From Patescibacteria group bacterium (GTDB lineage Bacteria > Patescibacteriota > JAQUNI01), in NCBI GenBank assembly GCA_028717685.1, contig JAQUNI010000001.1, forward strand, positions 633,329 through 697,328: 64,000 bases of DNA, given 5' to 3'. Of this stretch, positions 19,851 through 35,684 are shown piece by piece. Position 1 is the first letter of the stretch. Each line of letters opens with the position of its first letter. Below the pieces are notes generated by a model that worked only from the letters and a program-made list of their open reading frames with translations, did no database searches and was not told where the DNA came from. Position numbers and translations under genes: made by a program.

Positions 19851-19857
19851 AATATAT

Positions 19858-19931
19858 TCCGCGATAGCTCAATGGTAGAGCAACTGGCTGTTAACCAGTG
19901 GGTTGCAGGTTCGAGTCCTGCTCGCGGAGCC
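19858..19931 (+). tRNA. tRNA-Asn (anticodon GTT)
   Basis: Manual fold: acceptor TCCGCGA/TCGCGGA; D-arm GCTC-AATGGTA-GAGC; anticodon stem ACTGG/CCAGT with loop CTGTTAA; T-arm GCAGG-TTCGAGT-CCTGC; discriminator G. Confidence 0.85.
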
Positions 19932-20021
19932 GACAAAAATATGGCTTAACAAATCCATATTTTTTATACCCCTTCGTGGACGTTAGAACTTTTTAATGAT
20001 ATAATGAAGTTATGAAAAAAT

Positions 20022-20173
20022 ATCCTCTTATTCTATATGCGGTGGCGATGGCAGCCGTCATAGTCGGTGTAGATTTAGTGTTCTTCAGAAATCATCCCTG
20101 GGAACGGCTGATAGTGAACATTGGCATTGTCTTGGTGTTCGCAGCTTTCTACTTGAGATTCCTTTATCGGTAA
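20022..20173 (+). CDS. Small two-TM membrane protein (50 aa), hypothetical
   Basis: ATG at 20022 (MKKYPLILYAVAMAAVIVGVDLVFF...). It is below the ORF-track cutoff. Confidence 0.3.
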
Positions 20174-20373
20174 AAATAAACAACCATTGGCGGCGCGCTA
20201 ACGAAGTTGGCACAAAAAATTGCGGCGGCGGAAAAAGAAGCGGCGAAAGCTTGGGCGATCTAAAAGTTTTTCAAAATTCAGCGTTCGGCCCCGAAGGAAA
20301 GCCTTCGGCTTCCGACGGGATAAAATTTTCGCTAAAAAAAGTTCGGATTTCGTTCAGCGTTTGGAGCTCATAT

Positions 20374-20406
20374 AAAAAAATGGCTTATTTAAGCCATTTT
20401 TTGGTT
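20374..20406. promoter_or_regulatory. Family-A palindrome copy 1 (AAAAAAATGGCTTATTTAAGCCATTTTTTGGTT) upstream of TTGATA -35-like boxes
   Basis: Perfect A/T-flanked palindrome. TTGATA hexamers follow at 20424 and 20455. Confidence 0.6.
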
Positions 20407-20537
20407 AAAATTAGTAAAAATGATTGATAAAGTGTTGCTAAATATTACGTCTCTTTGATAAATTAGTAAAAAGTTATAAAATACATAGATCTTAATAATT
20501 TAAAGATAACTAAAAAGAAAGTATAAGAAGAAAGGAA

Positions 20538-21908
20538 GTGATAAAGATGGAGATGTTTAGTGGTTTTGATTTTTCGGAATACGGGTCACTCTCCAAGTTT
20601 GGGCAGCATCCGAAATTTGAAAGCTCGTTTAAAAAATGGCGGCGAAGGTTGCTCAATGGGCAATCCTCTAATGTTGTCAAATTAGCTGATATTCCGAAAT
20701 TAGGGAGTGTTTATCTTATCCCAAGGGATCAATATATAGAGATTGTTGATGGATTCGGGGATACGATCGCTATTGGAAGTCCTGGTAATGCTATGTTTCC
20801 ATTTAGCTCTTACGATTTTTTTGGAGACATCTATGAGGATGAGTATTTCCAGGAGCTTCTTCTGCAACCGTTCTTCCGCTTAGGAAAAATCAGTCAGCTC
20901 GGATATCTAGTTCCACCAAAGCCTGAGAGTTGGAAACTAAACGTTTCCATAATTTATCCCGCTCCTTATTTTGTCCATACCAGGTGGGCCCATTCAAGAT
21001 TAGTTGCCTTTTTAATGGAGGTGATTCTTGCTAAGCATGGCTATACAGAGAAAGAGCGGCTTCCTGTTGTTTTAACTGCTGCTTATCATGATGTTGCTAC
21101 GCCGGCGGGTGGGGACTCGGTCAAAAGAGTGGATGCTGAAGGTCTTAATGAAGAAGAGAATTTTGAATCGGTGCTAAGGCATTATGATTTGGTCCAAAAA
21201 TGGTCTGATAGGTATGGGTTTGATATAGAAAAAGCAAAACAATGGGTAAAGGGTATCGGGCTCTTTGGCAGACTCTTGGATATTATAGATAGAGTAGCCT
21301 ATACGGCATTGGACTGTTATTACGTGGGGTCTAGTCGTCCTTGTAAGCTTAGATTCTTTGGGCTAGAAAATCCTTTAACTCTGGACGTGTGGCAAGATTT
21401 AAAATTTAATGATGATCGCAATGACTTTGCTTTTACGGACCCAAACAGATTGTTCAAATTTTTACTCTTTAGGGCGTATGAGCACGAAGAGCTATTGATG
21501 AATCCGTATTCTAGGGCATTGGATTTTTTCCTGCAAAAGCTAGTCCAACCTCTATATAAAACGGGAATGATTATCCGGGAACAGCTTCTTTTGGGGGATG
21601 ATGAGTGGTTATATGGAGTACTTAAAAAACATTATCCAAATAAAAATTTGTGGGCCTTTATTGAGCCAGAGATTGTAATCTGGAAAAAGTTTGACAGTTC
21701 AGAGGGGCTTTGGAGGTTTTGTTTTGGAGATGAAACGATAGATCACGTAGAGCAGATCAAAGGTTTTGATACTGGTTTGGGTCTTGGAGTATACAGCGGC
21801 GCGGAGATTTTGCCCGTCAGAGAATTGCTGGCGGATGATCAGATTGAGGAGTTGGAAGAAATCAATAAGCAGGTAAAAGGATATTATGCTTATTGGATAA
21901 AAGAGTGA
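20538..21908 (+). CDS. HD-domain protein, divergent dGTPase/SAMHD1-like dNTP triphosphohydrolase family
   Basis: FFRLGKISQLGYL...HTRWAHSRLVAFLMEVI...LTAAYHDVATPAGGDSV aligns with the dGTPase motifs FRRLQ..KTQV / RLTHSLEV / AALLHDIGHPPFGH. Confidence 0.6.
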   Translation: MIKMEMFSGFDFSEYGSLSKFGQHPKFESSFKKWRRRLLNGQSSNVVKLADIPKLGSVYLIPRDQYIEIVDGFGDTIAIGSPGNAMFPFSSYDFFGDIYEDEYFQELLLQPFFRLGKISQLGYLVPPKPESWKLNVSIIYPAPYFVHTRWAHSRLVAFLMEVILAKHGYTEKERLPVVLTAAYHDVATPAGGDSVKRVDAEGLNEEENFESVLRHYDLVQKWSDRYGFDIEKAKQWVKGIGLFGRLLDIIDRVAYTALDCYYVGSSRPCKLRFFGLENPLTLDVWQDLKFNDDRNDFAFTDPNRLFKFLLFRAYEHEELLMNPYSRALDFFLQKLVQPLYKTGMIIREQLLLGDDEWLYGVLKKHYPNKNLWAFIEPEIVIWKKFDSSEGLWRFCFGDETIDHVEQIKGFDTGLGLGVYSGAEILPVRELLADDQIEELEEINKQVKGYYAYWIKE

Positions 21909-22028
21909 AAGGTTGGGACAGTGCTAAGGGAAACAAAATTTGTTTCCCTTTTTATTGACTTTTAGAAAAATTGGTTTAATATGAGGGTTAGTTTAATTAG
22001 TTCATTAAACTTGGTTTAATAAGAGAAG

Positions 22029-22829
22029 GTGACAAATATGAACCTACGAGCTTGGTTTCAGAGAAGATATGTAAATGAGATAGTAAAAGTTTTAGTTGAG
22101 GATGATAGAAAATGCCAAGAACTCATCAGGAGAGTAGAGGCGGATTATGAGGTCAAAGTAAAACTACCGGACTCAAACAGCATACCAAGTTGTTTTCTCG
22201 TTGATATGCTGGAAAGAGCCTTTACAACTGGAAAGATTGTTTTGCCTCCGAAGATTACCGTCCTTGATTTCGGGTGTGGCGATTGGTTCTATGCTCCCTT
22301 TTTACTGGGTTTTCTAAAACATTGGCAAGGATTCAGGGAGGTTTGTCTGGAGGGGATTGATTTTCCCAGTCGGAAAAATAAAAGGTCCCTACGCCGATTG
22401 CAGAAAGGAGAACCTGATTTAAGAGTCCATTGGGGCGACATTATGAATTTGTCCCAAGAGAACAAATACGACATAATTTTTGCAAGCCATATGGTGGCTT
22501 CGCCCCATCATTGTAAAATGTGGGGGGTTCCTTATTACAAGCCCAGTATGTTGTTCTCTTATTTACAATCTTTAGGAAAGCCCGACTGTTTGTTCGTTGT
22601 AATAGCTTATGAATATGCTGGAGAAGACGCGATTTTTCGTTGCTTTAAATCAAAGTTAACAGAATTTTTCTATCAACCTTTGGTCGAAAAAAAGTTTAGT
22701 TCCTTTCTTTATAATCGTCGCGGCTTTCATGACAACTCAATTTGTATCAGTAGATCTCCATTTGTGGACCTAGAAGCATGCGCGAGATATGAAGAGAAGA
22801 ATGAGGAAATGGACGCAATACTTTATTAA
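22029..22829 (+). CDS. Class I SAM-dependent methyltransferase
   Basis: Motif I VLDFGCGDW and an acidic post-I/II pattern (DIIFASHMV). ORF of 266 aa. Confidence 0.65.
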   Translation: MTNMNLRAWFQRRYVNEIVKVLVEDDRKCQELIRRVEADYEVKVKLPDSNSIPSCFLVDMLERAFTTGKIVLPPKITVLDFGCGDWFYAPFLLGFLKHWQGFREVCLEGIDFPSRKNKRSLRRLQKGEPDLRVHWGDIMNLSQENKYDIIFASHMVASPHHCKMWGVPYYKPSMLFSYLQSLGKPDCLFVVIAYEYAGEDAIFRCFKSKLTEFFYQPLVEKKFSSFLYNRRGFHDNSICISRSPFVDLEACARYEEKNEEMDAILY

Positions 22830-22831
22830 AC

Positions 22832-22864
22832 AAAGGACGGCTCTATCGGGAGCGTCCTTTTATA
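22832..22864 (+). terminator. Terminator-like hairpin
   Basis: AAAGGACGGCTCTATCGGGAGCGTCCTTT followed by T-rich sequence. Confidence 0.5.
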
Positions 22865-22908
22865 ATCTTAAGGATTACCGTTATCCGCTCCGTCTAAGAT
22901 ATAATGAG

Positions 22909-22977
22909 TAGCAGACCACGTCGCTCGCGAGCCCCGTCGCTCTTGAGCGACAGGGCGAGCGGCGTGGCAGGGCAAGG
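22909..22977 (+). other. GC-rich structured 5' leader element
   Basis: GTCGCTCGCGAGCCCCGTCGCTCTTGAGCGACAGGGCGAGCGGCG forms interlocking stems. It is preceded by a TATAAT -10 at about 22900. Confidence 0.45.
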
Positions 22978-23049
22978 TAAAATATGATAAACTAAGCTTG
23001 CGGGTTTAAATCAGGAGATATTTTCACTAAAAATATTAAAACAAAAAAT

Positions 23050-25020
23050 ATGAAATGGCGCGTGATTTTATTTATTGTTTTTTTCTGGTCAATCGCGGGA
23101 AAAATAGAGGCCGCTCAAGTGACCATCAATGCAACCGCGGATACCTATGTGAACTCTTATGCACCGACCCAAAATTTTGGCAGCGTTAATACTCTGGAGG
23201 TGCGCTCGCGCGATATTTCCCGCTCGAGTTTTCTCCAGTTTAATCTTTCCCACTTTATTCCCTTAGATGCGACGGTGACCAGGGCTTACTTGAAACTATA
23301 TCTTTTTGACAATTTTTGTTATACCAATGCCACCGCGCCGATGAATATCCGCATCTATCGGGTGAGCGGTCGTTGGTCTGAACAGAGCATTACTTACCAG
23401 AGCCAGCCTGATGCTTCCACCGTGGACGGCGCAAGCCTTACGCTTCCTCTAAATTCTGCCGCGGGATATAAAACTTGGGATGTTACGAATATTGTTAAGG
23501 GTTGGATTGATAACCAATATCTTAATTATGGTTTGCGCACATATTATTATTCAGAAAATAATTGTCAAGCCACATTTTATGCCCGTGAGGCAGGGGAAGG
23601 AATGAAGCCTCAGTTAGTTGTTGAATATACGCCGCCTCCGGACCGCACCCCGCCGCAGATTAGGGAAGTTTCAGCCGAAGTAACGGCGACGACAGCGACC
23701 ATTCGTTGGAAGACATACAATGACCCCTCTTCAAGCACGGTTGCTTACCGGCGGCCGGGAGCACAGCTCTGGCCAATCCAGAGCGCCGGGGGTTTAACAG
23801 TTGATCACAGTGTAACTTTAACCAATTTACAACCCCAAACACTATATCAATACACGGCGAAATCCAGAGACGCGGCAGGCAATGAAGCGGTTTCCGCGGT
23901 TTTAGAATTTACCACGGCAGAGGCCGAAGATCTGACTGCGCCGGATATTTCCAATCTGAGCGTTAATCACCTTTCAAGCCGCGCGGTAGAAATTATTTGG
24001 AGCTCGCAGGAAGAGGGGACAGGAGAGGTACGCTATAGCACAGATCGCCAACGCGTATCCATTGCCACCCAGGCGGGGCTCAAGACCAATCATACTGTGC
24101 GGTTGGAGCCGTTATTACCCGCCACAACTTACTATTTTGTGATTGACTCGGAAGATGCTCACGGGAACAGGACAGTCCGCGAGGAGGATCAATTTACTAC
24201 GCAGGCAGACGCTGCCGCTGAAGAAGAGGATGGAGAGGAACAGGATGAGGAAGAGAATTATAATCCTCTTTCCGTTTACAATATTGTTTCAGATGTTTTG
24301 AGCCCGACTAGTATGCGGTTCAGGTGGTGGAGCACAATTGACGGCACCTCTTGGGTTTTTGCTTCGGCAGACGCGGATGACGCGACATCGATTGAAGATT
24401 ATGAGTTTGTCGCGGGGCGCAATGATGGAGTAGATATGCACGAGGTTGTCTTGAACAATCTCGCGCCCGCCACAACCTATAGCTATCGCGTTCTAACGCG
24501 CGGCGCGGATGATCAAGTGGGTCTTTCAGAACTTAAAACTTTTCGCACTGACGCCCAATCTGCTCCCGAGGCCGCGGATGAGCAGCCCGAGGCACCTCCC
24601 CCGCTGCCGGCTGAACCCGATGGCACTCCGCAAGGTCAAGTCCCAGAACAAGTTACTGATCCGGCGGTGATTGAAGAGATTCGGCACCAGGCTCAAGAGG
24701 TAGTAGAGAAAAAAGAGAGTCCGGAGCCTGCCGTGAAAGAAAGTGAAAATTTGGAAGATGAGGGTCAAAAACCAGCCAACTTGGGCTCAAAGTTTTTATT
24801 TATTTTATCGCGCTTCTGGGTTTGGATTATTCTGGGGGGCGTTTTTTTCCTTGCTTTGCTGGGCATATTACTGTATTTATTATTACGCAAGAAAAAAGGC
24901 GGTGAAAATAGGGAGGCAAATCCCATCGCGTCGCAGCCAAGCAAGACAGTACCGAGCCAGATAGCGGCAGGGCAAACAGGCACGCAGACCCCCCAGCCCC
25001 AAAAGACCAAAAAGAGCTAA
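23050..25020 (+). CDS. Cell-surface protein: signal peptide, DNRLRE-like domain, fibronectin-III-like repeats, acidic linker, C-terminal TM anchor
   Basis: ATADTYVNSYAPTQNFGSVNTLEVRSRD...SFLQFNLS (DNRLRE-like). Repeated T-x-T-IRW/IIWSS...TLTNLQP..YQY segments (Fn3-like). Hydrophobic helix then a basic, P/Q-rich tail. Confidence 0.7.
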   Translation: MKWRVILFIVFFWSIAGKIEAAQVTINATADTYVNSYAPTQNFGSVNTLEVRSRDISRSSFLQFNLSHFIPLDATVTRAYLKLYLFDNFCYTNATAPMNIRIYRVSGRWSEQSITYQSQPDASTVDGASLTLPLNSAAGYKTWDVTNIVKGWIDNQYLNYGLRTYYYSENNCQATFYAREAGEGMKPQLVVEYTPPPDRTPPQIREVSAEVTATTATIRWKTYNDPSSSTVAYRRPGAQLWPIQSAGGLTVDHSVTLTNLQPQTLYQYTAKSRDAAGNEAVSAVLEFTTAEAEDLTAPDISNLSVNHLSSRAVEIIWSSQEEGTGEVRYSTDRQRVSIATQAGLKTNHTVRLEPLLPATTYYFVIDSEDAHGNRTVREEDQFTTQADAAAEEEDGEEQDEEENYNPLSVYNIVSDVLSPTSMRFRWWSTIDGTSWVFASADADDATSIEDYEFVAGRNDGVDMHEVVLNNLAPATTYSYRVLTRGADDQVGLSELKTFRTDAQSAPEAADEQPEAPPPLPAEPDGTPQGQVPEQVTDPAVIEEIRHQAQEVVEKKESPEPAVKESENLEDEGQKPANLGSKFLFILSRFWVWIILGGVFFLALLGILLYLLLRKKKGGENREANPIASQPSKTVPSQIAAGQTGTQTPQPQKTKKS

Positions 25021-25100
25021 GGATGTATTATTGCCTTCTTCTTAATTAGTTTTGCTCCTTTTTTGAGGGCATTCTTCTAAACACAGTTAAAATTGGAAAG

Positions 25101-26066
25101 ATGAAAAAGATTTTAATAATTGGATTGATTGCAGGTATTTTAGTAATTGGAATTATTGCCTTTTTCTTATTACATTTTTCTTCAGAAGAGGAGAATAATG
25201 TGGGCCAAGAATCAGAAATTTTTTGCGCAGATTACGATGGAAATCAACAAGAATGTTTATCCTATTCAGAATGCAAGTGGAGTTCAGATATAAATGAATG
25301 TGATTCAACAGATATGGTTGATGAAAATTATGAAGGATTGAACCAAGAATTAGAAAATATTGCTGTTCCAAATAATCCCTCAAATACTCTTTGCAAAAAA
25401 ATACCTTTGTCAGGTAAACCTCCTTATGGTGAAAGATATTACTGTTTGGCAGTTGTAAATCATGATGAAAGATTTTGTGAAGGGATTGATGAAGAAAAGG
25501 GGAAAAATATTTGCCTAGCCCATGCAAAAGCAGACCCCTCTTATTGTAAAAAAATCCAAGAAGATTCAGCTAAACATGTTTGTTATTATATGCTTGCGGT
25601 ATCAAGCAAAAATGCTGATTTTTGTAGTGATATTAGTTATAGCCAACATGAAAAAGAACAATGCTATTTTAATTTTATGAGTAATTTATATCAGTGGGAT
25701 AAATCTGATGAGATAAAAACAGAATACTGTAATCAACTTGGTACTCCAGATAAAAATACTTGTCTTGCGTTAAAGGCGAGAGATATTTCTCTTTGCGGAG
25801 ATAATCCTCATTGTTTGACTTTTTTTGGGCAAGATTTGTCTTTTTGTGATGAACATCCTGAAATAGATGGTTGCATAAAAGATAGGGCAAAGACAAGTAA
25901 AAATGTGTCAATTTGTGAATTACTTCCCCAGCCAGATAGAGATAGCTGTGTCGGGGTTTATTGCACCCACACAGAGCTTGATGTTAATATTTGTGATAGG
26001 ATTGAGGGTATTAAAGAAAGGCAAGACAGGTATATAGAACTTGCAATGAATTTAGGTAATTGGTAA
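25101..26066 (+). CDS. Membrane-anchored cysteine-rich protein, hypothetical
   Basis: N-terminal TM helix. More than 30 Cys in a repeating C..C pattern. Confidence 0.5.
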   Translation: MKKILIIGLIAGILVIGIIAFFLLHFSSEEENNVGQESEIFCADYDGNQQECLSYSECKWSSDINECDSTDMVDENYEGLNQELENIAVPNNPSNTLCKKIPLSGKPPYGERYYCLAVVNHDERFCEGIDEEKGKNICLAHAKADPSYCKKIQEDSAKHVCYYMLAVSSKNADFCSDISYSQHEKEQCYFNFMSNLYQWDKSDEIKTEYCNQLGTPDKNTCLALKARDISLCGDNPHCLTFFGQDLSFCDEHPEIDGCIKDRAKTSKNVSICELLPQPDRDSCVGVYCTHTELDVNICDRIEGIKERQDRYIELAMNLGNW

Positions 26067-26159
26067 AAATTTAATGCCGCAAAATCCTAAAAGTTTATTT
26101 TGTTTTTTTTATTCATTCTGATTCAAAATTAAAATCCAGTAATTTTTTCCTAGGGGAAA

Positions 26160-26197
26160 TTGGGGTCAGATCTTGTATCTTGACCTCTTTTTATTTT
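26160..26197 (+). terminator. Family-B conserved terminator copy 1
   Basis: TTGGGGTCAGATCTTGTATCTTGACCTCTTTTTATTTT. Confidence 0.6.
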
Positions 26198-26238
26198 AAA
26201 GCGGTTCATAACTTGGTCCGCCTTGGAGGAATTTATAT

Positions 26239-26269
26239 AAAAATGGCTTATTACAGCCATTTTTTGGTT
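26239..26269. promoter_or_regulatory. Family-A palindrome copy 2 upstream of TTGACA/TATCAT promoter
   Basis: AAAAATGGCTTATTACAGCCATTTTTTGGTT, then TTGACA at 26277 and TATCAT 17 nt later. Confidence 0.6.
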
Positions 26270-26619
26270 AAATAATTTGACAAAATAATTCAACTGTTTT
26301 ATCATTATATTTTATAACTCATAATTTACTGAAAGAGGCGATTTTTTGAAACACGAACATTGTTTTTTGGAAGATAGACTTTTTCAGTAGAATAGAGAGT
26401 TTCAATCTCTATCCTAGTAATGATAATGATTTATAAGTTCTACTGTTCATTCACAATTGAATAAGGTTAGAAAATCTTGAAATTTCTGTGAGGAGGAAAT
26501 GATGAAATCAAAGAATTATAATAAGAGATGGTTGGAAAAGTAGAGGTTATTTTTTAGCTATCTTTAGTTACGCTTGATTAGTAGGATACAAGGGTGTGAA
26601 AATCAAGAAGGAGAAAAAA

Positions 26620-29600
26620 ATGGTAAAAGGTGATGTTGATAGAGTGAAGGGGTATATTGATAGTGGTCTGATTGATCCTGTCAAAATAGCTCAAGAAATT
26701 GAAGGGTTGCCAGCATTACAGGTGGCTTATATTATTGATACGTATGACTTGATGCCGTCTACAATTGAACGTGGTGAGCTATATGAATCTGATAGTTTTA
26801 TTGACTTAGCTATGAAAACCCCTGGAATTCTTGAGGATACTCGTTTTGAAATACTTGCGCGATTTCATGAAAATTATGCTGCTAAGCTTTTTGCAGAAGG
26901 GCTGAAACTTTATCTTGATAGTCAAGAGGGAACTATTTTCGAATTTAATAAAGATACTGAAATAGATCCTACCAAGCCAATATCTTTTGTGAGGATTACT
27001 TACCGTCCTAATAAAGGAATAGAGCTGAAATATCTAAATGGAAATGCGCCTAGTAAGGGGTTTTATACCGTTTATTTGGGGAATAATTACACGGTTGTGT
27101 TTGATAACTCGGTTTTTAATAATAGGAAGGCAGTTTTTGAAGAACTTAGCTCAATTTTTTTATCTCGCAAAATTACATTTGTGGACTGTTCTCAGGAAGA
27201 GTTAAATGTGGTACAGCAATTAGAATCCGCTTTCTTATTAGCTTCAGTTGGCAGGACTCCGGTCTCTTGTCGATTTAAAGAGTCTTTCTTAATTGAGTGG
27301 TTGTCTTGGCAGGGCAAGCGGCAATTAGCCCGTGAGGAGGTAAAGCTTTTAGCCCGCCTCCTAAGGGAGAAAAATTTGTCTATCATGACTCCGGCAAGAA
27401 TTAAGCTTTATAAAGCTTCAAAAGGGCAATATGATAGAAGGCTTTTGACGGATATATTCTTTAGGAAGGAGGAGCCCAAAAAAATGGTTTCTAATATAAA
27501 TTGCCTAATGAATTTTAATATGGATTTAGCAGGCATTAAAGGTCCTATTGAAAAAGCGCCATTTCATATTTTAGCTCAAGACGTACCGATTAAGGTTGCT
27601 CCATTAAAAGGGTCGATTTCTTGCGCTTCTTATCTCATGAAATTTTATCCAGGGTATGGGGTATTAGACCAAAGTAAATCCATAATGGTATTAGATGAAC
27701 TTTCGCGCGAGAAGCGCTCTCGTTTGTATCTTAGCTTCTTTTATGATCCCGAGAGTCCGCTTTACAAAGCGCATTCCGCTTTTAGTAATGAAGTTAGCAA
27801 ACAGCTCAGAGAAAGAGGATTAGATAATGCCCGAAAGCTAATCCAGGCTTATATTGTTCGAAATAAGATGAGGATTGAAGATATAAAAGCCGAGGATATA
27901 GCTTTTCTATTTTCAGGTGGTTCTACTTTTTCTTTGTGCGGGATAAAAATACCTCATAGGACGAGACTTATTATGAATAAGATCTTTCCTGACGAATACG
28001 GACGGCTTTCTTTAGAAAGCGGTGAGGAATTATTTTCGCTTGATAATGAAGGCTTAATAGGTATTCGCAAAAGAGCTTATTTTGACGATGGTGCTGATGA
28101 TGCCGATATTTATACATCGGATGAGTTAAAGAGAATCAAGGAACGTTTTCGAGAAAATAGCAAAATGGCAATTAAATGCTATCTTGCTTTGCATCCCGAA
28201 AAAAGCTTAGATCTATTAAGCCAAGGAGATTTGACCGCTATTTCAGCTAAAATGTTGAGAATTTTGGGCGGTAGTTCTGTAAGGGTTTGTTTGAATAGAT
28301 TGATGCCTGATCAGTTCTTAATCCTTGATGAGGAAAAATCCCTTCATTATCTCATGGCAAAAGATAGGGATAAATTTTCTTTAGCCAGAAGATACATTCC
28401 GGATTATTACCATATCGTAGAGGAGGAGCCAGATAATTCCCAAATTTTATATGATGAGCATGATATAGCAGTGATTCGTGAAAGAACTATTGAGAATCTG
28501 AGAACTCTTGTTAAAACTCTTTTAAAATTCAAAGGATTTAGGTTTGTAGAGGAATTGGGCAGGCATAATACTGAAGGGCTGATTGATTTGCGCATTTTAG
28601 GCAATGCTTTCCCTAGTAGAGTTGATGGCAGTAATAATTTTATTGCTTCCACGAGAAAACTTTTCTTTAATGATTACGGTGTTTTAACTGAAGAAAAGTA
28701 TAGATATTGGAAGCATCAGGCAACGGGTCCAAAGAAACGTTATTTAAGCAATGTTTTTTTTATGGATCCAGACCTTGAAGATGGCTGGACTAAAGAAGAA
28801 ATTGAGGTAATCAAGTCACAATCTAAGAAAAATGCTATATTAGCCCTTAAGCTTTATATGCAAGAAGAAGGTATATTAGATATTCATAATATAACCAAGG
28901 AGATGCTGATAAAAGGAGTTGGGAAGCAGCCATTACTTCGTATCCTTGGTGTTTCTAGCTTTAGGAGCATTTTGAATGAAATATTCCCGGATGATTTTGC
29001 TGTTTTAACCCAAAACGGAGTTAAAAATTATTTTTCTTCTTCAACTACCCAGAAGCAGGCTCTTAATTATTCCTACTTTGGGACAAATGCTGACGGAGGG
29101 CTTGAACGGTATGCTGAAATTTCTGGCTTGAATAAAAAGTGGGTTTCTAATGCTATTGTGATGTTTCTTGAATTTCTAAGGGTAAATAGACTGTCATGGA
29201 AAGTATTCGGAGATGATGGGAGTTTACATTCTGATATTACTTTTACTCTTCCGGACAGTGTTTTTAGGATATTCAAGACCGATAACCATCACTTCATGTG
29301 GATTAAGGAGCAAATCGCGCCATTCCTTCATCCCATTGAAGATACAGAAGCTTTCTATTGGATCAATCTTGCTGAAACTGTAAATTTAGTAAAATTTTGG
29401 CAGTTAGATGATCTAAAAAATACTAATAGAATTCAAGACGTTCCTCTGCAGTTAAGAGCTAGAATCGCCGCAAAGGTTTTTGAGCATGGATATCCTTTTA
29501 TTTCTAATCAAAGAAACATGCTCGCAGCTGATTCAAAGGCGCTATTGCTTGCTAACCTTGATTCAATATCGGATCAACTTGATGGGATTGAAAAAGTTTT

Positions 29601-30228
29601 ATCGTTAGCTTGTTCCGACAGGTATGCCAATGTTAAAAAAGCTAGTTGGCAATCAATTTACTTGCTTAATCGCCACAATCCAGCGAAAGCAGAGGAAAGC
29701 ATTGCAATCTTGATGCGTTCCCGCAATCTTTCTGATGCTGAGGTAAAAAATATTCCGTCTGAATTACTAAAGGTAGTGAGCATTACGGCTGGAAAAGTTA
29801 ACAGCGATTTAGTTGACTTGCTTAAAATTTTTGGGCAAGAGCTAGATCTTGATCAAAATTGGCATAGCGACCAAATCAAGCTTATCAAGGGTGCGATTGC
29901 TGCGATAGATCATTTGGCCAAGGGTGAAATAGATCAATTGTTAAGATTGGCAAAGTTGGTTATAGAAAAGAATTTTTTTCTTTTTTATAATAGGGTTTTT
30001 AGGATTTTGGCAAAAAATATCAAATTTTTAACCGTTGATCATTTTGGAAGTTTAGCGCCAATAATTCCGGATTTAGTCTTTGATTCCAATGATGTGACGA
30101 AACAAGTCGGAATGATGCTGGTTGAAAATTTGCGTTTAGCTTACCCTGTTTTAGGAGAAACGAATCAAGCTATGACAGGGAATGTTTTACAAGATGTTAA
30201 GAATAGGATAATCACTGGAAATTTTTAG
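26620..30228 (+). CDS. Large hypothetical protein (about 1200 aa) with internal repeats; no recognised catalytic motif
   Basis: ATG at 26620 preceded by AAGGAG, in frame with ORF 26596. At least four copies of an RILG-SS-R..LN.IFPD-F..L-like module. No Walker A motif found. Confidence 0.6.
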   Translation: MVKGDVDRVKGYIDSGLIDPVKIAQEIEGLPALQVAYIIDTYDLMPSTIERGELYESDSFIDLAMKTPGILEDTRFEILARFHENYAAKLFAEGLKLYLDSQEGTIFEFNKDTEIDPTKPISFVRITYRPNKGIELKYLNGNAPSKGFYTVYLGNNYTVVFDNSVFNNRKAVFEELSSIFLSRKITFVDCSQEELNVVQQLESAFLLASVGRTPVSCRFKESFLIEWLSWQGKRQLAREEVKLLARLLREKNLSIMTPARIKLYKASKGQYDRRLLTDIFFRKEEPKKMVSNINCLMNFNMDLAGIKGPIEKAPFHILAQDVPIKVAPLKGSISCASYLMKFYPGYGVLDQSKSIMVLDELSREKRSRLYLSFFYDPESPLYKAHSAFSNEVSKQLRERGLDNARKLIQAYIVRNKMRIEDIKAEDIAFLFSGGSTFSLCGIKIPHRTRLIMNKIFPDEYGRLSLESGEELFSLDNEGLIGIRKRAYFDDGADDADIYTSDELKRIKERFRENSKMAIKCYLALHPEKSLDLLSQGDLTAISAKMLRILGGSSVRVCLNRLMPDQFLILDEEKSLHYLMAKDRDKFSLARRYIPDYYHIVEEEPDNSQILYDEHDIAVIRERTIENLRTLVKTLLKFKGFRFVEELGRHNTEGLIDLRILGNAFPSRVDGSNNFIASTRKLFFNDYGVLTEEKYRYWKHQATGPKKRYLSNVFFMDPDLEDGWTKEEIEVIKSQSKKNAILALKLYMQEEGILDIHNITKEMLIKGVGKQPLLRILGVSSFRSILNEIFPDDFAVLTQNGVKNYFSSSTTQKQALNYSYFGTNADGGLERYAEISGLNKKWVSNAIVMFLEFLRVNRLSWKVFGDDGSLHSDITFTLPDSVFRIFKTDNHHFMWIKEQIAPFLHPIEDTEAFYWINLAETVNLVKFWQLDDLKNTNRIQDVPLQLRARIAAKVFEHGYPFISNQRNMLAADSKALLLANLDSISDQLDGIEKVLSLACSDRYANVKKASWQSIYLLNRHNPAKAEESIAILMRSRNLSDAEVKNIPSELLKVVSITAGKVNSDLVDLLKIFGQELDLDQNWHSDQIKLIKGAIAAIDHLAKGEIDQLLRLAKLVIEKNFFLFYNRVFRILAKNIKFLTVDHFGSLAPIIPDLVFDSNDVTKQVGMMLVENLRLAYPVLGETNQAMTGNVLQDVKNRIITGNF

Positions 30229-30254
30229 GTTTCCAGTGATTCAGGAGGTTTAAG

Positions 30255-31136
30255 ATGGGCAGCACAATAATGAGCGGTTCTTTGATGAAATTAATTGATG
30301 CAACACTGGAAGAGGCAGAAAGAAGAAATGCGCTTTTAAAGTTTCGGGGGGAACATGGATTGGGAATAAAGCTAGTAAAGAGGAAATATTTACTTGAAGC
30401 TTTAGAAAGCTTAAATGCAAATGCAATGTCGGTTGTTCTTAACGAACAGCTGTTAGAAATTATTAAGTCATTTTGGGCGTGCATTATAGATCCTTTAATG
30501 AGAACAGGGTCTATTCTAGGCCACCATTTGGACTTTTTGCGCAATGAAGTAAAGCTTACAGCTACGATCGGCATCAAGGCTATATGTTTTATTCAAGAAA
30601 AATATGAACCACCAGAAGTTTTAGTGGACTTATATTTCAATGAAAAAAACAAAGAAGGCGTAGAAGCTAAGATCAATAAGCTCGGCGAATTGGTTTTTAT
30701 TGACCCTGATATTAATAGGTTGTGGCCAATAAATATTCGCAGGGTTATCCAGGCTTCGGTCTTAGCTTATTATCTTGTATTAGTTTGTCCTGGAATATGC
30801 AAAGAGTCACCTAGCGGCGATGATGATGAAAAGGACAATGAAAAACGAGAGCAAAAAAAGAAACGGAAGGGAGTAATAAATTTCCGAAGGGCGCATTTAC
30901 GCACATTGCCAGAAGGTTATGTCGCCTCAGCACGCCAGTTGGCACTAGCTATCTCTTCTGGAAAATATAGCGAAGAAGAGATTGAACATATAGTGCAAGA
31001 GGGAAGGCACCAAACTTTTGTGAAGGAATTTTCAAAAGAGGATAGCGACCTTCCGAATATAGATCCTAGAAAGTTATTTAGTAAAATTTCCCCAATAAAA
31101 TTTCTAAATGCTTATTTAGATTTAACGGGAGGTTGA
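30255..31136 (+). CDS. Hypothetical protein (293 aa), co-operonic with the 1210-aa gene
   Basis: Starts 27 nt after the upstream stop with GGAGG upstream. K/E-rich linker. No recognised domain. Confidence 0.5.
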   Translation: MGSTIMSGSLMKLIDATLEEAERRNALLKFRGEHGLGIKLVKRKYLLEALESLNANAMSVVLNEQLLEIIKSFWACIIDPLMRTGSILGHHLDFLRNEVKLTATIGIKAICFIQEKYEPPEVLVDLYFNEKNKEGVEAKINKLGELVFIDPDINRLWPINIRRVIQASVLAYYLVLVCPGICKESPSGDDDEKDNEKREQKKKRKGVINFRRAHLRTLPEGYVASARQLALAISSGKYSEEEIEHIVQEGRHQTFVKEFSKEDSDLPNIDPRKLFSKISPIKFLNAYLDLTGG

Positions 31137-31419
31137 GTTTTCTGGGTTATTCTGAAAAAGAATAACCCTTTTTATTACTAAAATTTTAAAACAGACCGTG
31201 CTTTTTTTGTATTTATTTTTAATTGTTTAAATATATTTAGCTTCCACGAAAGAAAGATTTTTGAATTCTCCTGTAATTTTGTCCCAATCCGTCAAAATAG
31301 AGGAGGTTTAGAATAGTTTTTTTGTTTGCCGAAAGTAGGTTATAATAAAAAAGATATCCCCTTCAAGTTTGCTGCGGCTGGGTAATTTGTTAGTATATTG
31401 GAGACAAAAATCAAGGTGT

Positions 31420-32772
31420 ATGAAACAACAATTAGCAAAATTAATTCCGGCTGGCAGCGTAATTTTGGGAATTACTACTTTAATCTCGTATTTATTAGGA
31501 TTGGTTCGCGATCACTATTTCGCTCAAATCTTTGGCGCTTCAAGGGCTCTTGACGCTTATAACGCCGCTTTTTTGATTCCTGATTTGTTATTTAATATTT
31601 TGGTGGCGAGCGGGATTGCCGCGGCTTTTATCCCGATTTTTACCGAGCTTTTGAAACTTGACGCGGAGCGGGCTTTAAAATACGCAAACTCAGTTATTAC
31701 CGCCGCTATCGGATCAATGATCATTATTTCGGTAATTATTATTATTTTTGCCGGTCCGATTAGCGCGTTAGTGGTCCCGGGGTTTAATCTGACGGATCGC
31801 GCGCTGGTGGCTAAAATTCTTCGCCTCTTGGCTCTATCGCCCATATTTTTTGGAGTCTCAAACGCTATCGGCGCTATGTTAGTAACTAAACGGCGTTTTC
31901 TTTTTTATGGCTTGTCTCCGGTTTTATATAATTTAGGAATAATCGGCGGCACAATTTTTCTCGCGCCGCATTTCGGAATTATGGGCGTGGCATTAGGCAC
32001 TGTCGGCGGCGCATTTTTACATCTCGCAGCCAGATTTTTTGACGCGCGGCGGTCAGGTTTTGTTTTTAGTTTAAAATATTCTTTTGGGACCGCGGAGTTT
32101 AAACAAACTCTCAAATTAATGTTGCCGAAAATGCTTGGCCATCCGATGGAGCTCATTACTTTTTGGGCGTTTACAGCTATTAGTTCTACTTTAATTCCCG
32201 GTTCGGTAGCGGTGATGAGTTTTGCCCGAAATTTTGAAAGTGTTCCAGTTAGTTTAATTGGTATTACTATTGCCACAACCACCTTCCCGATTTTAGCGAT
32301 GACGATTGCCGACCGTTCGATTGAACGTTTCCGCAAAATTTTAAGAAATTCTTTTTTGTTAATATTTTTTACCAGTATCGCCGCCGCCTGCGCTACCTTT
32401 TGGATAAAAGAACCCTTGGTTCGGATTGCTTTGGGAGGGGGAGCGTTTCAGGCGAGTGATATTGCCAGAACCTCGGCGACTTTAGGGATGTTTGCTTTAG
32501 CCATACCGACCGAAGCCTCGATTCAGCTTTTGGCGCGCGCTTTTTACGCTACAAAAAACACGATCATTCCGGTCGCGTTAAGTATTGTCGGGCTTATTAT
32601 TTCAGTTGGCGGCGCCTATTTATTGGTTCCGCGCTATGAGATTTTAGCTTTGCCTTTAGGATTTTTTATCGGCAGCGCGGTAGAATTAATTTTGTTGATC
32701 TTCTTAATTTTGATTAGGACTCGGCAATTATTCAGCCATATTCCCAAAAATGAACAACCGTTGTTGCAGTAA
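31420..32772 (+). CDS. murJ: Lipid II flippase MurJ
   Basis: LGLVRDHYFAQIFGASRALDAYNAAFLIPDLLFNILVAS... is the MurJ/MviN N-terminal signature. 14 TM helices. ATG at 31420 after AAGGTG. Confidence 0.85.
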   Translation: MKQQLAKLIPAGSVILGITTLISYLLGLVRDHYFAQIFGASRALDAYNAAFLIPDLLFNILVASGIAAAFIPIFTELLKLDAERALKYANSVITAAIGSMIIISVIIIIFAGPISALVVPGFNLTDRALVAKILRLLALSPIFFGVSNAIGAMLVTKRRFLFYGLSPVLYNLGIIGGTIFLAPHFGIMGVALGTVGGAFLHLAARFFDARRSGFVFSLKYSFGTAEFKQTLKLMLPKMLGHPMELITFWAFTAISSTLIPGSVAVMSFARNFESVPVSLIGITIATTTFPILAMTIADRSIERFRKILRNSFLLIFFTSIAAACATFWIKEPLVRIALGGGAFQASDIARTSATLGMFALAIPTEASIQLLARAFYATKNTIIPVALSIVGLIISVGGAYLLVPRYEILALPLGFFIGSAVELILLIFLILIRTRQLFSHIPKNEQPLLQ

Positions 32773-32775
32773 GTT

Positions 32776-33576
32776 TTAGTTCGGGTAAACAACTATAATG
32801 GCTTTGCGGCCAGTGGGGATATCTTTCTCTAATTCTAAATTGTTTAATTCGCCGCCGCCAAAAGGCGCGTCGTGAACAGCGTTATATAGAACATTAGCGT
32901 TGTAAACATAATTGTAGCCTCTTCTTGTGCCGACATCATTGGTAATAAAGTTGCCATCTTTAGTTATACCTTTAACCACGATCATATGATAAATCGGTCC
33001 GGGTTGGCGATAAAACGGATTGTTGACCATGCGGCCAGCTAAGGGCACGATGACTGGACGGCCGGCAATTATTTGCGTTTTAATATCTTCCAGAGAAATA
33101 TCATAATCGACATCTACCCGTTTATAACCAAAATATTCTTTTAGTATTTGTCCGGTTTCTTTGGCGGTGGTATGTTCGTAATAGCCAAAGGTTTTATTTT
33201 CCCAATCTACTATTTTAAGAATTTCTTGTTTGGCAATTGCCGGAGTAAGCTTTTCGTGTTTGTAAAAGCGGTCAACTAAAAGAGCCGAGGTTTCTTCGCA
33301 GGCTTCTCCATATGGCAAACTCCAATCTTTATATGGCGCTTGGGCGGAAAAGGGCACAGCTAAGTTTATGCCGGCAAATTTAGTGGAGGTGGCGGCAATG
33401 GGCGACGTTGAAACATTTTCAACCTCTGTTGGCAATTGGCGTTTCTCCAATTCCAGAATAAGGTCTCGAATATTGCTGCGAAAATAAAAAGCCGAAATCC
33501 CGACAACTATCAATGCCCCCGCGGTTATTAATATTTTTTTCATACTATTTATTATACAATATTTATATAATATCAA
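32776..33576 (-). CDS. Membrane-anchored peptidase C39-like domain protein
   Basis: N-terminal TM helix. C39-like (PF13529-type) pattern with Cys (EACEETSALLV) and His (PIYHMIVVKG) segments. Confidence 0.55.
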   Translation of the reverse strand: MILYKYCIINSMKKILITAGALIVVGISAFYFRSNIRDLILELEKRQLPTEVENVSTSPIAATSTKFAGINLAVPFSAQAPYKDWSLPYGEACEETSALLVDRFYKHEKLTPAIAKQEILKIVDWENKTFGYYEHTTAKETGQILKEYFGYKRVDVDYDISLEDIKTQIIAGRPVIVPLAGRMVNNPFYRQPGPIYHMIVVKGITKDGNFITNDVGTRRGYNYVYNANVLYNAVHDAPFGGGELNNLELEKDIPTGRKAIIVVYPN

Positions 33577-33641
33577 ACAATATTAAGCCCACGCATTTCG
33601 CATTCTGATGCCGTTATGATAAAGGCAATCGCAGAATCAAA

Positions 33642-34169: not shown

Positions 34170-34262
34170 TAAGATGTTTGGAAAGTATCGTTTTTCCGAG
34201 AGCGCAAATATAGTAACTCCCAAAATACTAGGACCTAAATCCGAAGAACTATTAAGAATAAA

Positions 34263-34301
34263 TTTGGGGTCAAGTCTTAAAGCTTGACCTTTTTTTATTT
34301 T
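34263..34301 (+). terminator. Family-B conserved terminator copy 2
   Basis: TTTGGGGTCAAGTCTTAAAGCTTGACCTTTTTTTATTTT with a perfect 7-bp GGTCAAG/CTTGACC stem. Confidence 0.7.
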
Positions 34302-34373
34302 AAATTATAAAATCGCCAGAAGGGCGATTTTTTGGTAAAATAAAAAAGAGTTCATTAAAATAAAAACAAATTT

Positions 34374-35644: not shown

Positions 35645-35684
35645 GTTTGGGGTCAGGTCTAAAAAATTTAACCTCTTTTTTATT
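35645..35684 (+). terminator. Family-B element copy 3 (stem degenerate)
   Basis: TTTGGGGTCAGGTCTAAAAAATTTAACCTCTTTTTTATTT. The sequence is conserved but the 3' arm is mutated (TAACC for TGACC). Confidence 0.5.

What the first reader, a model, noticed from the sequence alone, without database searches (positions are those of the whole stretch)
19858..31420. Roughly 11.5-kb tRNA-Asn-adjacent accessory block of unusual genes between core genes rpoD and murJ
Everything between tRNA-Asn and murJ is non-housekeeping. The block holds a dNTPase-like HD protein, a methyltransferase, a DNRLRE/Fn3 surface protein, a Cys-rich anchored protein and an uncharacterised 1210-aa plus 293-aa operon. All of it is transcribed on the same strand. 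Conserved terminator and palindrome modules (families A and B) punctuate it. tRNA 3' flanks are classic insertion points for genomic islands. No integrase is present, so this would be an old or degraded island, or a variable region maintained by other means.
Basis: inference. Interest (0 to 1): 0.6.

Follow-up and report, generated by a model that had tools for sequence, protein, structure and literature searches.

The report
Shuffled gene cassettes beside tRNA-Asn
The stretch after tRNA-Asn in this ultra-small (Patescibacteria) bacterium is not one inserted island but part of a longer patchwork. Single genes or small operons, each ending in a conserved hairpin, are gained, lost and reordered between close strains, and the supposedly core cell-wall gene murJ is one of the travelling pieces.

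Summary
The described layout is real: dnaG, rpoD, a four-helix-bundle gene, tRNA-Asn (19858-19931), six co-directional non-housekeeping genes, then murJ (ATG 31420). There is no integrase and no tRNA-derived repeat.

It is not a single tRNA-bounded island:
- The nearest relative, R (90-96% nt identity), keeps HD, methyltransferase, DNRLRE and Cys-rich genes in order. It has an 11-kb insertion between the first two.
- The window-specific unit is 26148-34309: the 1210-aa and 293-aa genes, murJ, a convergent C39 peptidase and a second C39 gene. A 44-bp direct repeat of a terminator-like hairpin (module B) flanks it. R carries two other genes there, and a third strain carries three other genes plus murJ-C39.
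- murJ-C39 is a sharply bounded 2.2-kb module. It is 81-88% nt identical across lineages whose rpoD is only 53-62% identical, so it moves horizontally.
- W and R differ by 11 indel or replacement events over 35 kb, on both sides of the tRNA.
- Junctions fall at hairpin/T-run modules, and cassettes such as DUF998 occupy different positions in different strains.

Best fit: an integrase-less, additive-type flexible region. The mechanism is inferred, not shown. The 1210/293 pair is a very rare conserved operon of unknown function.

The parts
19858..19931 (+). tRNA-Asn(GTT). The rpoD->tRNA-Asn adjacency is conserved in many Patescibacteria.
   Evidence: ARAGORN and Rfam, 74.9 bits. The adjacency is seen in L002, L006, L024, L083, L087-L090 and L172.
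19933..19964 (+). Hairpin A' plus T-run directly after the tRNA. It forms the left boundary of a window-only 400-bp mini-cassette.
   Evidence: Inverted repeat I1; junction sequences.
19963..20363 (+). Window-only mini-cassette. It holds a 53-aa ORF with two hydrophobic segments (20012-20173) and is absent from relative R.
   Evidence: blastn gap between R 9858 and R 9819; hydrophobicity; junctions.
20374..20405 (+). Hairpin module A (AAAAATGGCTTATTTAAGCCATTTTTT, followed by GGTTAAAAT). Further copies lie at 26242, 35744 and 40014.
20547..21908 (+). HD-domain protein (453 aa). It is backbone: 96.5% nt identical in relative R.
21926..21957 (+). Terminator hairpin plus TTTTTATT. This is the exact site where relative R carries an 11-kb, 10-gene insertion that ends in module B plus TTTTTTATT.
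22038..22829 (+). Class I SAM-methyltransferase-like protein (263 aa). Backbone, shared with R.
22858..23011 (+). Repeated leader/promoter-type module upstream of the DNRLRE gene. The same sequence precedes the unrelated DUF998 cassette in R and in L175/L176.
   Evidence: blastn at 87-91%.
23050..25020 (+). DNRLRE/CBM96 + Fn3 surface protein (656 aa) with a C-terminal membrane anchor. Backbone, shared with R.
25101..26066 (+). Cys-rich (6.9% Cys), N-terminally anchored protein (321 aa). Backbone, shared with R (95.5% nt) and with L175.
26148..34309 (+). The window-specific 8.2-kb segment. In R it is replaced by 2 kb (a 245-aa methyltransferase and a 269-aa gene). In L175/L176 its place is taken by NYN, 186-aa and DUF998 genes followed by murJ-C39.
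   Evidence: blastn maps; gene tables.
26157..26200 (+). Module B hairpin plus T-run. Left copy of the 44-bp direct repeat that flanks the 8.2-kb segment.
   Evidence: Self-blastn at 84%.
26596..30228 (+). 1210-aa all-cytoplasmic protein: an N-terminal alpha/beta domain, repeated helical modules and a C-terminal alpha-solenoid. It belongs to a very rare family.
   Evidence: Only itself among 5.8 G clusters. Six other representatives among 1.84 G. AF2 pLDDT 78.8, pTM 0.42. Only generic solenoid fold hits.
30255..31136 (+). 293-aa partner of the 1210-aa gene. The pair is conserved and adjacent in L180 (47% and 38% identity).
   Evidence: The model has no significant fold match.
31394..33609 (.). 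murJ-C39 module: murJ (31420-32772, +) and a convergent Peptidase_C39_2 gene (32776-33543/33576, -) with its promoter. It is sharply bounded and horizontally shared.
   Evidence: 88%, 84% and 81% nt identity to L162, L164 and L168/L166, and 94.7% to L175. Identity matrix. Module ends.
33642..34169 (+). Second C39-family peptidase gene (175 aa). It is the last gene of the window-specific segment and is 72% nt identical to a C39 gene inside R's 11-kb insertion.
34261..34333 (+). Module B (right copy of the flanking repeat) followed by hairpin module C and TGGTAAAAT. Homology with R resumes here.
35650..35673 (+). Module B copy at the left junction of the next replaced segment (35644-36371).
36279..36301 (+). 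Module B copy (partly duplicated) at the right junction of that segment.
39024..39047 (+). Module B copy after the P-type ATPase gene, at the junction where 39068-41140 is replaced in R.

Best explanation
The interval is a section of an integrase-less flexible ('additive'-type) genome region in a Patescibacteria lineage. It is not a discrete island inserted at tRNA-Asn. The region is an array of co-directional transcription units (cassettes). Each cassette is one to a few genes ending in a conserved terminator-like hairpin plus T-run (modules A, B, C). Close strains differ by whole-cassette insertion, deletion, replacement and re-ordering, and the breakpoints lie at or immediately after these hairpin/T-run modules.

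- The proximal four genes (HD, methyltransferase, DNRLRE surface protein, Cys-rich anchored protein) are genus-level backbone.
- The distal 1210-aa/293-aa operon belongs to an 8.2-kb strain-specific segment (26148-34309). This segment also carries murJ, its convergent C39 peptidase and a second C39 gene, and is flanked by direct repeats of module B.
- murJ-C39 is itself a 2.2-kb cassette that has spread horizontally among deeply diverged Patescibacteria.

Shown: the variability, its boundaries, the repeats at the junctions, and the phylogenetic discordance of murJ-C39.

Inferred: the mechanism. Cassettes probably arrive by DNA uptake and are fixed by recombination, either homologous recombination in shared flanks or short-homology recombination at hairpin/T-run modules. 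Recombination between directly repeated modules would delete cassettes. Selection would tolerate junctions only just downstream of terminators.
For: 1. Nearest relative. R (L172/L170/L174; dnaG 96% and rpoD 94% aa identity) aligns at 90-96.5% nt identity over W 12537-15898, 16173-19963, 20363-26148, 34309-35644, 36371-39068, 41140-42773 and 44215-48071. The alignment is interrupted by 11 indel or replacement events.

2. Further strain states. L175/L176 run Cys-rich | NYN, 186 aa, DUF998 | murJ, C39 | 269 aa | 160 aa | 158 aa. L177 runs DUF998 | 160 aa | 158 aa | 1067 aa | GFO. DUF998 therefore occupies three different positions.

3. Independent assemblies. Each arrangement is reproduced in two assemblies. 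W matches L173 and L081 at 100%. L172 matches L170 at 100% over 7.9 kb. L175 matches L176 at 100% over 5 kb.

4. Flanking repeat. A 44-bp direct repeat of module B lies at 26157-26200 and 34261-34304. Module B copies sit at W 35650, 36279 and 39024, at R 22372, 30102, 31050 and 33788, at L175 1720 and at L177 921. All of these are at variable junctions.

5. Junction anatomy. Each inserted unit ends in its own hairpin plus T-run and lies directly after a resident hairpin plus T-run. This holds for R's 11-kb insert, W's 400-bp insert and W's 8.2-kb segment.

6. murJ-C39 discordance. Between the W/R, L162 and L164/L168 lineages, rpoD is 53-62% and dnaG 35-42% identical. Across the same lineages plus L166, murJ is 84-90% identical. 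murJ is only 62% identical to the equally distant L087. DNA homology is confined to W 31394-33609, and the flanking genes differ in every genome.

7. Island hallmarks are absent. There is no integrase or transposase, no tRNA-Asn partial repeat, and no defence or phage signature.

8. The pattern matches published additive flexible islands, which show cassette number and order independent of phylogeny and near-identical cassettes in divergent backgrounds (PMC4898812). HGT among Patescibacteria is documented (PMC12455944).
Against: - Only four strain states are available, and two come from contigs under 9 kb.
- All data are metagenome assemblies. Strain mixtures could in principle be mis-joined at repeated hairpins, although each state is seen in two assemblies.
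- Insertion versus deletion is not polarised for any event.
- No recombination enzyme is identified, so the mechanism is inference.
- Terminators are where whole-gene indels must end anyway, so the hairpin-junction association is partly trivial. Nearly every intergenic region between 20 and 45 kb is a junction in some comparison.
- Whether this mosaic density exceeds the genome average is unknown, because only 35 kb could be compared.
- Whether W or R has another murJ elsewhere is unknown.
Confidence: 0.7

Rival explanations
1. A classical, old or degraded genomic island integrated at the 3' end of tRNA-Asn and spanning 19.9-31.4 kb.
For: The block starts right after a tRNA. Its genes are non-housekeeping. 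Gene content downstream of rpoD-tRNA-Asn differs in every distant relative.
Against: There is no integrase. No tRNA-Asn 3' repeat exists anywhere in the 64 kb. GC and codon usage lie within the window's spread. The tRNA-proximal half is conserved in order in the nearest relative. The actual variable boundaries are 26148 and 34309, not the tRNA and murJ. Distant relatives also share nothing in the tRNA-Ser-to-dnaG interval, so non-synteny at that distance is not specific to this slot.
Confidence: 0.05
2. A lineage-specific but stable (core) gene cluster: ordinary Patescibacteria 'dark matter' genes that only look accessory because they lack annotation.
For: HD, MT, DNRLRE and Cys-rich genes are present, in order, at 93-96% nt identity in R. 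The DNRLRE C-terminal part and the Cys-rich gene are also present in L175. Composition is native.
Against: The 1210/293 operon is absent from R and from L175/L176 at this locus. R has 11 kb inserted between HD and MT. W has a 400-bp insert after the tRNA. So the block as a whole is not conserved even at about 93% nt identity.
Confidence: 0.1
3. A site-specific cassette system analogous to an integron (or a hairpin/terminator-targeting element). Module B/A/C hairpins would act as recombination sites recognised by a recombinase encoded elsewhere in the genome.
For: Cassettes are co-oriented. A conserved ~45-nt hairpin sits at cassette ends. Direct repeats of the hairpin flank the inserted units. 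Cassettes are re-ordered between strains. Breakpoints lie within or right after the hairpin/T-run.
Against: No tyrosine, serine or HUH recombinase was found in 64 kb. Module B is a perfect 10-11-bp stem plus T-run, i.e. a textbook intrinsic terminator, without the attC-type bipartite R''-L''/L'-R' structure. Several junctions have no module: 13678, 15898/16173, 41140 and 42773. The murJ-C39 module ends carry no hairpin or inverted repeat.
Confidence: 0.1
4. An assembly or binning artefact: the window is a chimera of strains or lineages joined at repeats, which would produce the apparent mosaic and the murJ discordance.
For: All sequences are metagenomic, and short repeats sit at the junctions.
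Against: The W arrangement from HD to murJ is reproduced at 100% identity in separate Logan assemblies of two runs (L173 from SRR22315506, L081 from SRR22315509). R is reproduced in JGI and ENA assemblies. L175 and L176 come from two runs. L175/L176 independently link backbone genes (Cys-rich, 269-aa, 160-aa) to murJ-C39.
Confidence: 0.05

Closest known systems
Additive flexible genomic islands (fGIs) of Alteromonas and other free-living bacteria (Lopez-Perez & Rodriguez-Valera; PMC4898812)
   Same: Both occupy an equivalent location in related strains. Both hold varying numbers and kinds of gene cassettes. Cassette order does not follow phylogeny. Near-identical cassettes occur in widely divergent genomic backgrounds (here murJ-C39 and DUF998). 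Both are often next to a tRNA gene.
   Different: Here there are no integrases and no partial tRNA repeats marking cassette additions. Junctions lie at terminator-like hairpin modules. The host is an ultra-small Patescibacteria genome. Variation also extends upstream of the tRNA.
Classical tRNA-integrated genomic or pathogenicity islands
   Same: Both sit immediately 3' of a tRNA gene and carry accessory-looking cargo.
   Different: This block has no integrase, no att direct repeat and no compositional anomaly. It is not gained or lost as a unit, and half of it is conserved in the nearest relative.
Integron cassette arrays
   Same: Both are arrays of co-oriented cassettes, each ending in a conserved imperfect or perfect palindrome. 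Cassette content and order vary between strains.
   Different: No IntI is present. The hairpins are short terminators with T-runs, not attC sites. The cassettes appear to have their own promoters, and some junctions lack the hairpin.
Minimal mobile elements of Neisseria and hypervariable regions of streamlined genomes such as Prochlorococcus islands and SAR11 HVRs (recalled from my own knowledge; not checked here)
   Same: Alternative gene cassettes lie between conserved flanking genes. They carry no mobility genes and are exchanged by transformation and homologous recombination.
   Different: Natural transformation is not demonstrated for this lineage. Here cassettes are also re-ordered, and conserved hairpin modules mark the junctions.

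Membership tests
Classical tRNA-integrated genomic island | Tyrosine/serine integrase (or a remnant) adjacent to the tRNA or inside the island | tested here: not met
   There is no recombinase, integrase or transposase Pfam hit for any block protein, nor for about 45 other window ORFs.
Classical tRNA-integrated genomic island | Direct repeat of the tRNA 3' end at the distal boundary | tested here: not met
   22-nt and 17-nt probes from the tRNA-Asn 3' end, allowing up to 3 mismatches, matched only the tRNA itself.
Classical tRNA-integrated genomic island | Atypical base composition or codon usage relative to the host | tested here: not met
   Four of the six genes lie within about 1 SD (|z| <= 1.4). 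The outliers are DNRLRE (GC z +2.0) and the Cys-rich gene (GC3 z -3.1). Genes outside the block are equally extreme.
Classical tRNA-integrated genomic island | Presence or absence as one unit between the tRNA and the distal repeat in related genomes | tested here: not met
   The relative keeps 20363-26148 and lacks 26148-34309. It has its own 11-kb insert at about 21950.
Additive flexible genomic island | Same genomic location in related strains, with different combinations of cassettes | tested here: met
   Four strain states (W, R, L175/L176, L177) lie between shared backbone genes.
Additive flexible genomic island | Cassettes disconnected from the core phylogeny, with highly similar cassettes in divergent backgrounds | tested here: met
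   murJ is 84-90% identical where rpoD is 53-62%. The DUF998 cassette is about 90% nt identical in three different positions.
Additive flexible genomic island | Site-directed integration hallmarks (integrases, tRNA partial repeats after added cassettes) | tested here: not met
   None were found. Hairpin/T-run repeats flank the inserts instead.
Integron | IntI-type tyrosine recombinase with attI next to the array | tested here: not met
   It is absent from the 64-kb window. The rest of the genome was not available.
Integron | attC sites (57-141 bp, bipartite imperfect palindromes with conserved core sites) | tested here: not met
   Module B is about 45 nt with a perfect 10-11-bp stem, a short loop and a T-run. 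This was judged by inspection only.
MurJ lipid II flippase (for 31420-32772) | Score above the TIGR01695 equivalog cut-off | tested here: met
   241.3 bits against a cut-off of 235.55. Pfam MurJ E-value 4.5e-67.
HD phosphohydrolase superfamily (for 20547-21908) | HD Pfam domain above the gathering score, and an H...HD...D metal-binding motif | tested here: inconclusive
   20.7 bits against a cut-off of 22. An 'AAYHDVATP' HD dyad follows upstream His residues. There is no PDB sequence relative. A 'dNTPase-like' function is not supported by any test.

The most novel reading that the evidence does not exclude
The conserved hairpin/T-run modules (A, B, C) are not merely terminators. They would be the recombination sites of a cassette-shuffling system specific to these Patescibacteria, using an unknown recombinase or a recombinase-independent, hairpin-directed mechanism. 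The system would move single transcription units, including an essential-type cell-wall gene pair (murJ-C39), within and between deeply diverged lineages. It would be a functional analogue of integrons without IntI or attC.
Probability: 0.12. Interest if true: 0.75.

Novelty: new member of a known kind. Interest (0 to 1): 0.42.

Why it matters
Patescibacteria (CPR) have tiny genomes with few recognisable mobile elements, yet HGT among them is reported to be common. How genes move between them is unclear. This locus gives a concrete, base-pair-resolved example. Close strains differ by whole transcription units whose junctions sit at conserved hairpin/T-run modules, with no integrase present. 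A gene normally treated as core (murJ, with a C39 peptidase partner) behaves as a mobile cassette across lineages whose sigma factors are only about 55-60% identical. That cautions against using such genes as island anchors or phylogenetic markers in CPR. It also points to cell-envelope functions (MurJ, C39, M23 and M15 peptidases, DNRLRE and Cys-rich surface proteins) as the fast-turnover compartment of these episymbionts. The locus also isolates a very rare, conserved 1210-aa/293-aa operon for future study.

Tried and rejected
- Synteny through 80 GTDB species representatives and 80 JGI metagenome loci around rpoD. The best rpoD identity was only 61-68%, and nothing beyond dnaG-rpoD(-tRNA-Asn) is shared. 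This is too distant to judge island status.
- att-site search with the tRNA-Asn 3' end: negative.
- GC and codon-usage test: not discriminating.
- Rfam at gathering threshold: only the two tRNAs were found.
- PADLOC and PHROGs on the block proteins: there is no defence or prophage signal, only DNRLRE-domain hits to PHROGs of unknown function and one sub-threshold tail-protein hit (phrog_6977, E 0.0084).
- PDB sequence searches for the HD and 1210-aa proteins: nothing.
I went through cluster look-ups instead.
- A DUS-like (uptake-sequence) reading of the hairpin half-sites was considered but not pursued. Copies are too few (5 in 64 kb) and are confined to 26-39 kb.
- The event tally printed ('4 upstream') double-counts one event. 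The correct counts, are 3 upstream and 8 downstream of the tRNA.


Full report
OBSERVATION

- tRNA-Asn(GTT) is at 19858-19931.
- Upstream lie dnaG (16174-17964), rpoD (18051-19391) and a 23S-IVP/Avd-like four-helix-bundle gene (19429-19809).
- Downstream, all on the + strand, lie six genes:
  - an HD-like protein (20547-21908; Pfam HD 20.7 bits, just below the cut-off);
  - a 263-aa class I SAM-methyltransferase-like protein (22038-22829; no Pfam hit, VLDFGCG motif, NCBI name);
  - a DNRLRE/CBM96+Fn3 protein with a C-terminal anchor (23050-25020);
  - a 321-aa protein with 22 cysteines and an N-terminal anchor (25101-26066);
  - a 1210-aa gene (26596-30228) and a 293-aa gene (30255-31136), 26 bp apart.
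- murJ follows, with its ATG at 31420.
- No integrase or transposase domain occurs in any block protein or in about 45 other window ORFs.

The same-strand argument is not specific to the block. About 51 of 59 ORFs in the window are on the + strand, and cumulative GC skew rises monotonically.

WHERE IT COMES FROM

Exact-sequence look-ups identify the source as an NCBI 'Patescibacteria group bacterium' MAG with a 722,217-bp contig (proteins MDD5626990-MDD5627028). Two Logan assemblies of sibling runs reproduce HD through murJ at 100% identity (L173, L081).

1. Partial tRNA repeat. Probes of 22 and 17 nt from the tRNA-Asn 3' end, allowing 3 mismatches, match only the tRNA itself.

2. Composition. 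Block genes lie inside the window's own distribution. Only the DNRLRE gene (GC z +2.0) and the Cys-rich gene (GC3 z -3.1) are outliers, and genes elsewhere in the window are equally extreme.

3. Synteny.
- Species-representative genomes and JGI metagenomes contain only distant relatives (rpoD at most 68% identical). In them nothing beyond dnaG-rpoD(-tRNA-Asn) is shared. This also holds for the tRNA-Ser-to-dnaG interval in L087, so at that distance non-synteny says nothing specific about this slot.
- Close relatives were reached through murJ homologs and 90% clusters.

THE DECISIVE COMPARISON

Relative R is a 'Ca. Doudnabacteria' MAG, covered by L172, L170 and L174, which overlap at 100% identity. 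Its dnaG is 96% and its rpoD 94% identical to the window's. It aligns with the window at 90-96.5% nt identity in collinear blocks, interrupted by 11 events. In window coordinates these are:

| Position in W | Event |
|---|---|
| 13678 | R has an extra 0.4 kb |
| 15898-16173 | R has an extra 1.8-kb gene |
| just before tRNA-Asn | R has a ~330-bp GIY-YIG element |
| 19963-20363 | W-only 400 bp holding a 53-aa membrane ORF |
| ~21950 | R has 11 kb with ten genes, between HD and MT |
| 26148-34309 | 8.16 kb in W replaced by 2.0 kb in R |
| 35644-36371 | replaced |
| 39068-41140 | replaced |
| 42773-42865 | R has an extra 3.5 kb |
| 42865-44235 | a divergent allele (77% nt) |
| ~44225 | R has an extra 0.45 kb |

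Three points follow.
- HD, MT, DNRLRE and the Cys-rich gene are conserved backbone.
- Events are no rarer upstream of the tRNA (3 in 7.3 kb) than downstream (8 in 28 kb).

Two further strains add more states.
- L175/L176: Cys-rich | NYN, 186 aa, DUF998 | murJ, C39 | 269 aa | 160 aa | 158 aa.
- L177: DUF998 | 160 aa | 158 aa | 1067 aa | GFO.

The DUF998 cassette therefore sits in three different contexts. It lies before the ATPase in R, before murJ in L175 and before the 160-aa gene in L177.

JUNCTION ANATOMY

The 8.2-kb window-specific segment is flanked by a 44-bp direct repeat (84% identical) at 26157-26200 and 34261-34304. This is 'module B', a 10-11-bp-stem hairpin plus T-run with consensus ttGGGGTCAgGTCTtgAAaCTTGACCtcTTTTTtATTT.

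Other module B copies lie at W 35650, 36279 and 39024, at R 22372, 30102, 31050 and 33788, at L175 1720 and at L177 921. Every one of them is at a variable junction. Modules A and C are hairpins followed by TTTTTTGGT(T/A)AAAT, and they occur only between 20 and 40 kb of the window.

Each inserted unit ends in its own hairpin plus T-run and lies directly after a resident hairpin plus T-run.
- R's 11-kb insert follows '...TTTCCC-TTTTTATT' and ends in module B plus 'TTTTTTATT'.
- W's 400-bp insert lies between hairpins A' and A.

Some junctions have no module (13678, 15898/16173, 41140, 42773). Whole-gene indels must end in intergenic DNA in any case, so the association is suggestive rather than proof of a hairpin-directed mechanism.

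murJ IS NOT A CORE ANCHOR

DNA homology to four other genomes is confined to W 31394-33609. That stretch runs from about 25 nt upstream of the murJ ATG, through the convergent Peptidase_C39_2 gene, to about 45 nt beyond its start codon. Identities are:

| Genome | nt identity to W over the module |
|---|---|
| L162 | 88% |
| L164 | 84% |
| L168 and L166 | 81% |
| L175 | 94.7% |

The neighbours differ in every genome. Upstream of murJ they are the 293-aa gene in W, DUF998 in L175, tRNA-Asn plus a 124-aa ORF in L162, a C39 paralog in L164/L168, and an acyltransferase in L166.

Protein identities are discordant. W/R, L162 and L164/L168 are mutually distant, with rpoD 53-62% and dnaG 35-42% identical. 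The W-L162 tRNA-Asn is about 75% identical. Yet murJ is 84-90% identical among all of them, and 62% identical to L087, whose rpoD is equally distant. The simplest reading is horizontal spread of a two-gene murJ-C39 cassette among deeply diverged Patescibacteria. The module has no terminal repeats.

THE UNCHARACTERISED OPERON

- The 1210-aa protein matches only itself in the indexed 5.8-billion-cluster search. In the exhaustive 1.84-billion-representative search it has six other representatives, the best at 38% identity.
- The 293-aa protein has five other clusters at 41-78% identity.
- In L180 the two homologs (38% and 47% identical) are again adjacent, downstream of an M15 peptidase gene. The pair is therefore a conserved but very rare operon.
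- AlphaFold gives a locally confident model of the large protein (pLDDT 78.8, pTM 0.42). It shows an N-terminal alpha/beta domain, four or five repeated helical modules and a C-terminal solenoid, and has only generic HEAT/ARM-like matches.
- The 293-aa model (pLDDT 67.8) has no significant fold match.
- There are no defence or phage signatures. Function remains unknown. Neither protein has a signal peptide, so a cytoplasmic scaffold-type role is the most that can be inferred.

INTERPRETATION

The best-supported description is an integrase-less flexible region of the 'additive' kind (PMC4898812) in a phylum where intra-phylum HGT is already documented (PMC12455944). It consists of an array of co-directional transcription units, each ending in a conserved terminator-type hairpin. 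These units are gained, lost, replaced and re-ordered between strains.

The mechanism is inferred. DNA uptake would be followed by homologous recombination in shared flanks, or by short-homology recombination at hairpin/T-run modules. Cassettes would be deleted by recombination between directly repeated modules.

The rival readings rank as follows.
- A classical tRNA island is essentially excluded.
- A stable core cluster is excluded for the block as a whole, though it is true of the block's proximal half.
- An integron-like site-specific system remains possible but lacks an enzyme and attC-like sites.
- An assembly artefact is unlikely, because each arrangement is seen in two independent assemblies.

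VERDICT

The region is variable and integrase-less, but the boundaries are wrong, half of the block is conserved, murJ lies inside the variable unit, and the tRNA has not been shown to be the integration site. Novelty: a new member of a known kind (a flexible genomic region). Two features are worth follow-up: hairpin-delimited cassettes, and a mobile murJ-C39 pair.

Noticed in passing
window 6823-7240; L172 9415-9825; also L089 869-1189 and L162 16924-17311: Small GIY-YIG ORFs (80-106 aa) sit immediately upstream of tRNA genes, each preceded by a partial copy of the tRNA 5' part and a GC-rich hairpin. In W, 'GGAGAGGTCGCAT' (the first 13 nt of tRNA-Ser) lies at 6828-6840, followed by the GIY-YIG ORF and then the intact tRNA-Ser at 7153. 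In relative R, a tRNA-Asn 5' half (up to the anticodon, interrupted by a 46-nt hairpin) is followed by a GIY-YIG ORF and then the intact tRNA-Asn. W lacks that insertion. This looks like a family of ~330-bp homing-type elements that target tRNA genes.
   Followed up: partly
window 19395-19428 and 19817-19849: The 23S-IVP/Avd-like four-helix-bundle gene between rpoD and tRNA-Asn is bracketed by inverted arrays of GTAATC/GATTAC-type heptads (85% complementary). The gene is conserved in relative R. No DGR reverse transcriptase was seen in the window.
   Followed up: no
window 18051-18310: The rpoD product carries an N-terminal extension of about 85 aa that is extremely rich in Arg and Lys ([15 protein letters not shown]...). 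It is conserved in relative R (445 aa). The rpoD genes of L162, L164 and L168 encode proteins of only 399-415 aa, so they probably lack most of it.
   Followed up: no
window 26277-26595: A strong sigma-70-like promoter (TTGACA-17-TATCAT, 11/12) lies about 290 nt upstream of the 1210-aa gene. The leader contains a 14-codon ORF (26500-26544, MMKSKNYNKRWLEK) behind a GAGGAGG Shine-Dalgarno sequence.
   Followed up: no
window 22858-23011; R (L170) 16654-16759; L175 3547-3644: A ~100-150-nt upstream module is shared at 87-91% between unrelated cassettes: the DNRLRE gene in W and R, and the DUF998 gene in R and L175/L176. Promoter/leader modules therefore appear to be re-used or co-mobilised, as the hairpins are. 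A similar case: W 60175-60338 matches R L174 14887-15049 next to a different gene.
   Followed up: partly
window 42865-44235: The Gfo/Idh/MocA oxidoreductase gene is only 77% nt (72% aa) identical to the relative's copy, while its flanks are 90-96% identical. This suggests allelic replacement by recombination with a more distant donor.
   Followed up: no
L162 9254-13492; L164 and L168: In other Patescibacteria lineages dnaG-rpoD and murJ-C39 are also neighbours (0.9-4.3 kb apart), but murJ-C39 is inverted relative to rpoD. In L162, tRNA-Asn lies 670 bp upstream of murJ. The rpoD / tRNA-Asn / murJ-C39 neighbourhood is therefore ancient, yet its orientation and filling change repeatedly. The L002 contig ends exactly at tRNA-Asn.
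   Followed up: partly
L180 251-6475: The only moderately close homolog pair of the 1210-aa/293-aa operon (38% and 47% identical) lies downstream of a Peptidase_M15 (VanY/D-Ala-D-Ala peptidase-like) gene. This echoes the cell-wall gene neighbourhood in the window (murJ, C39, M23).
   Followed up: partly
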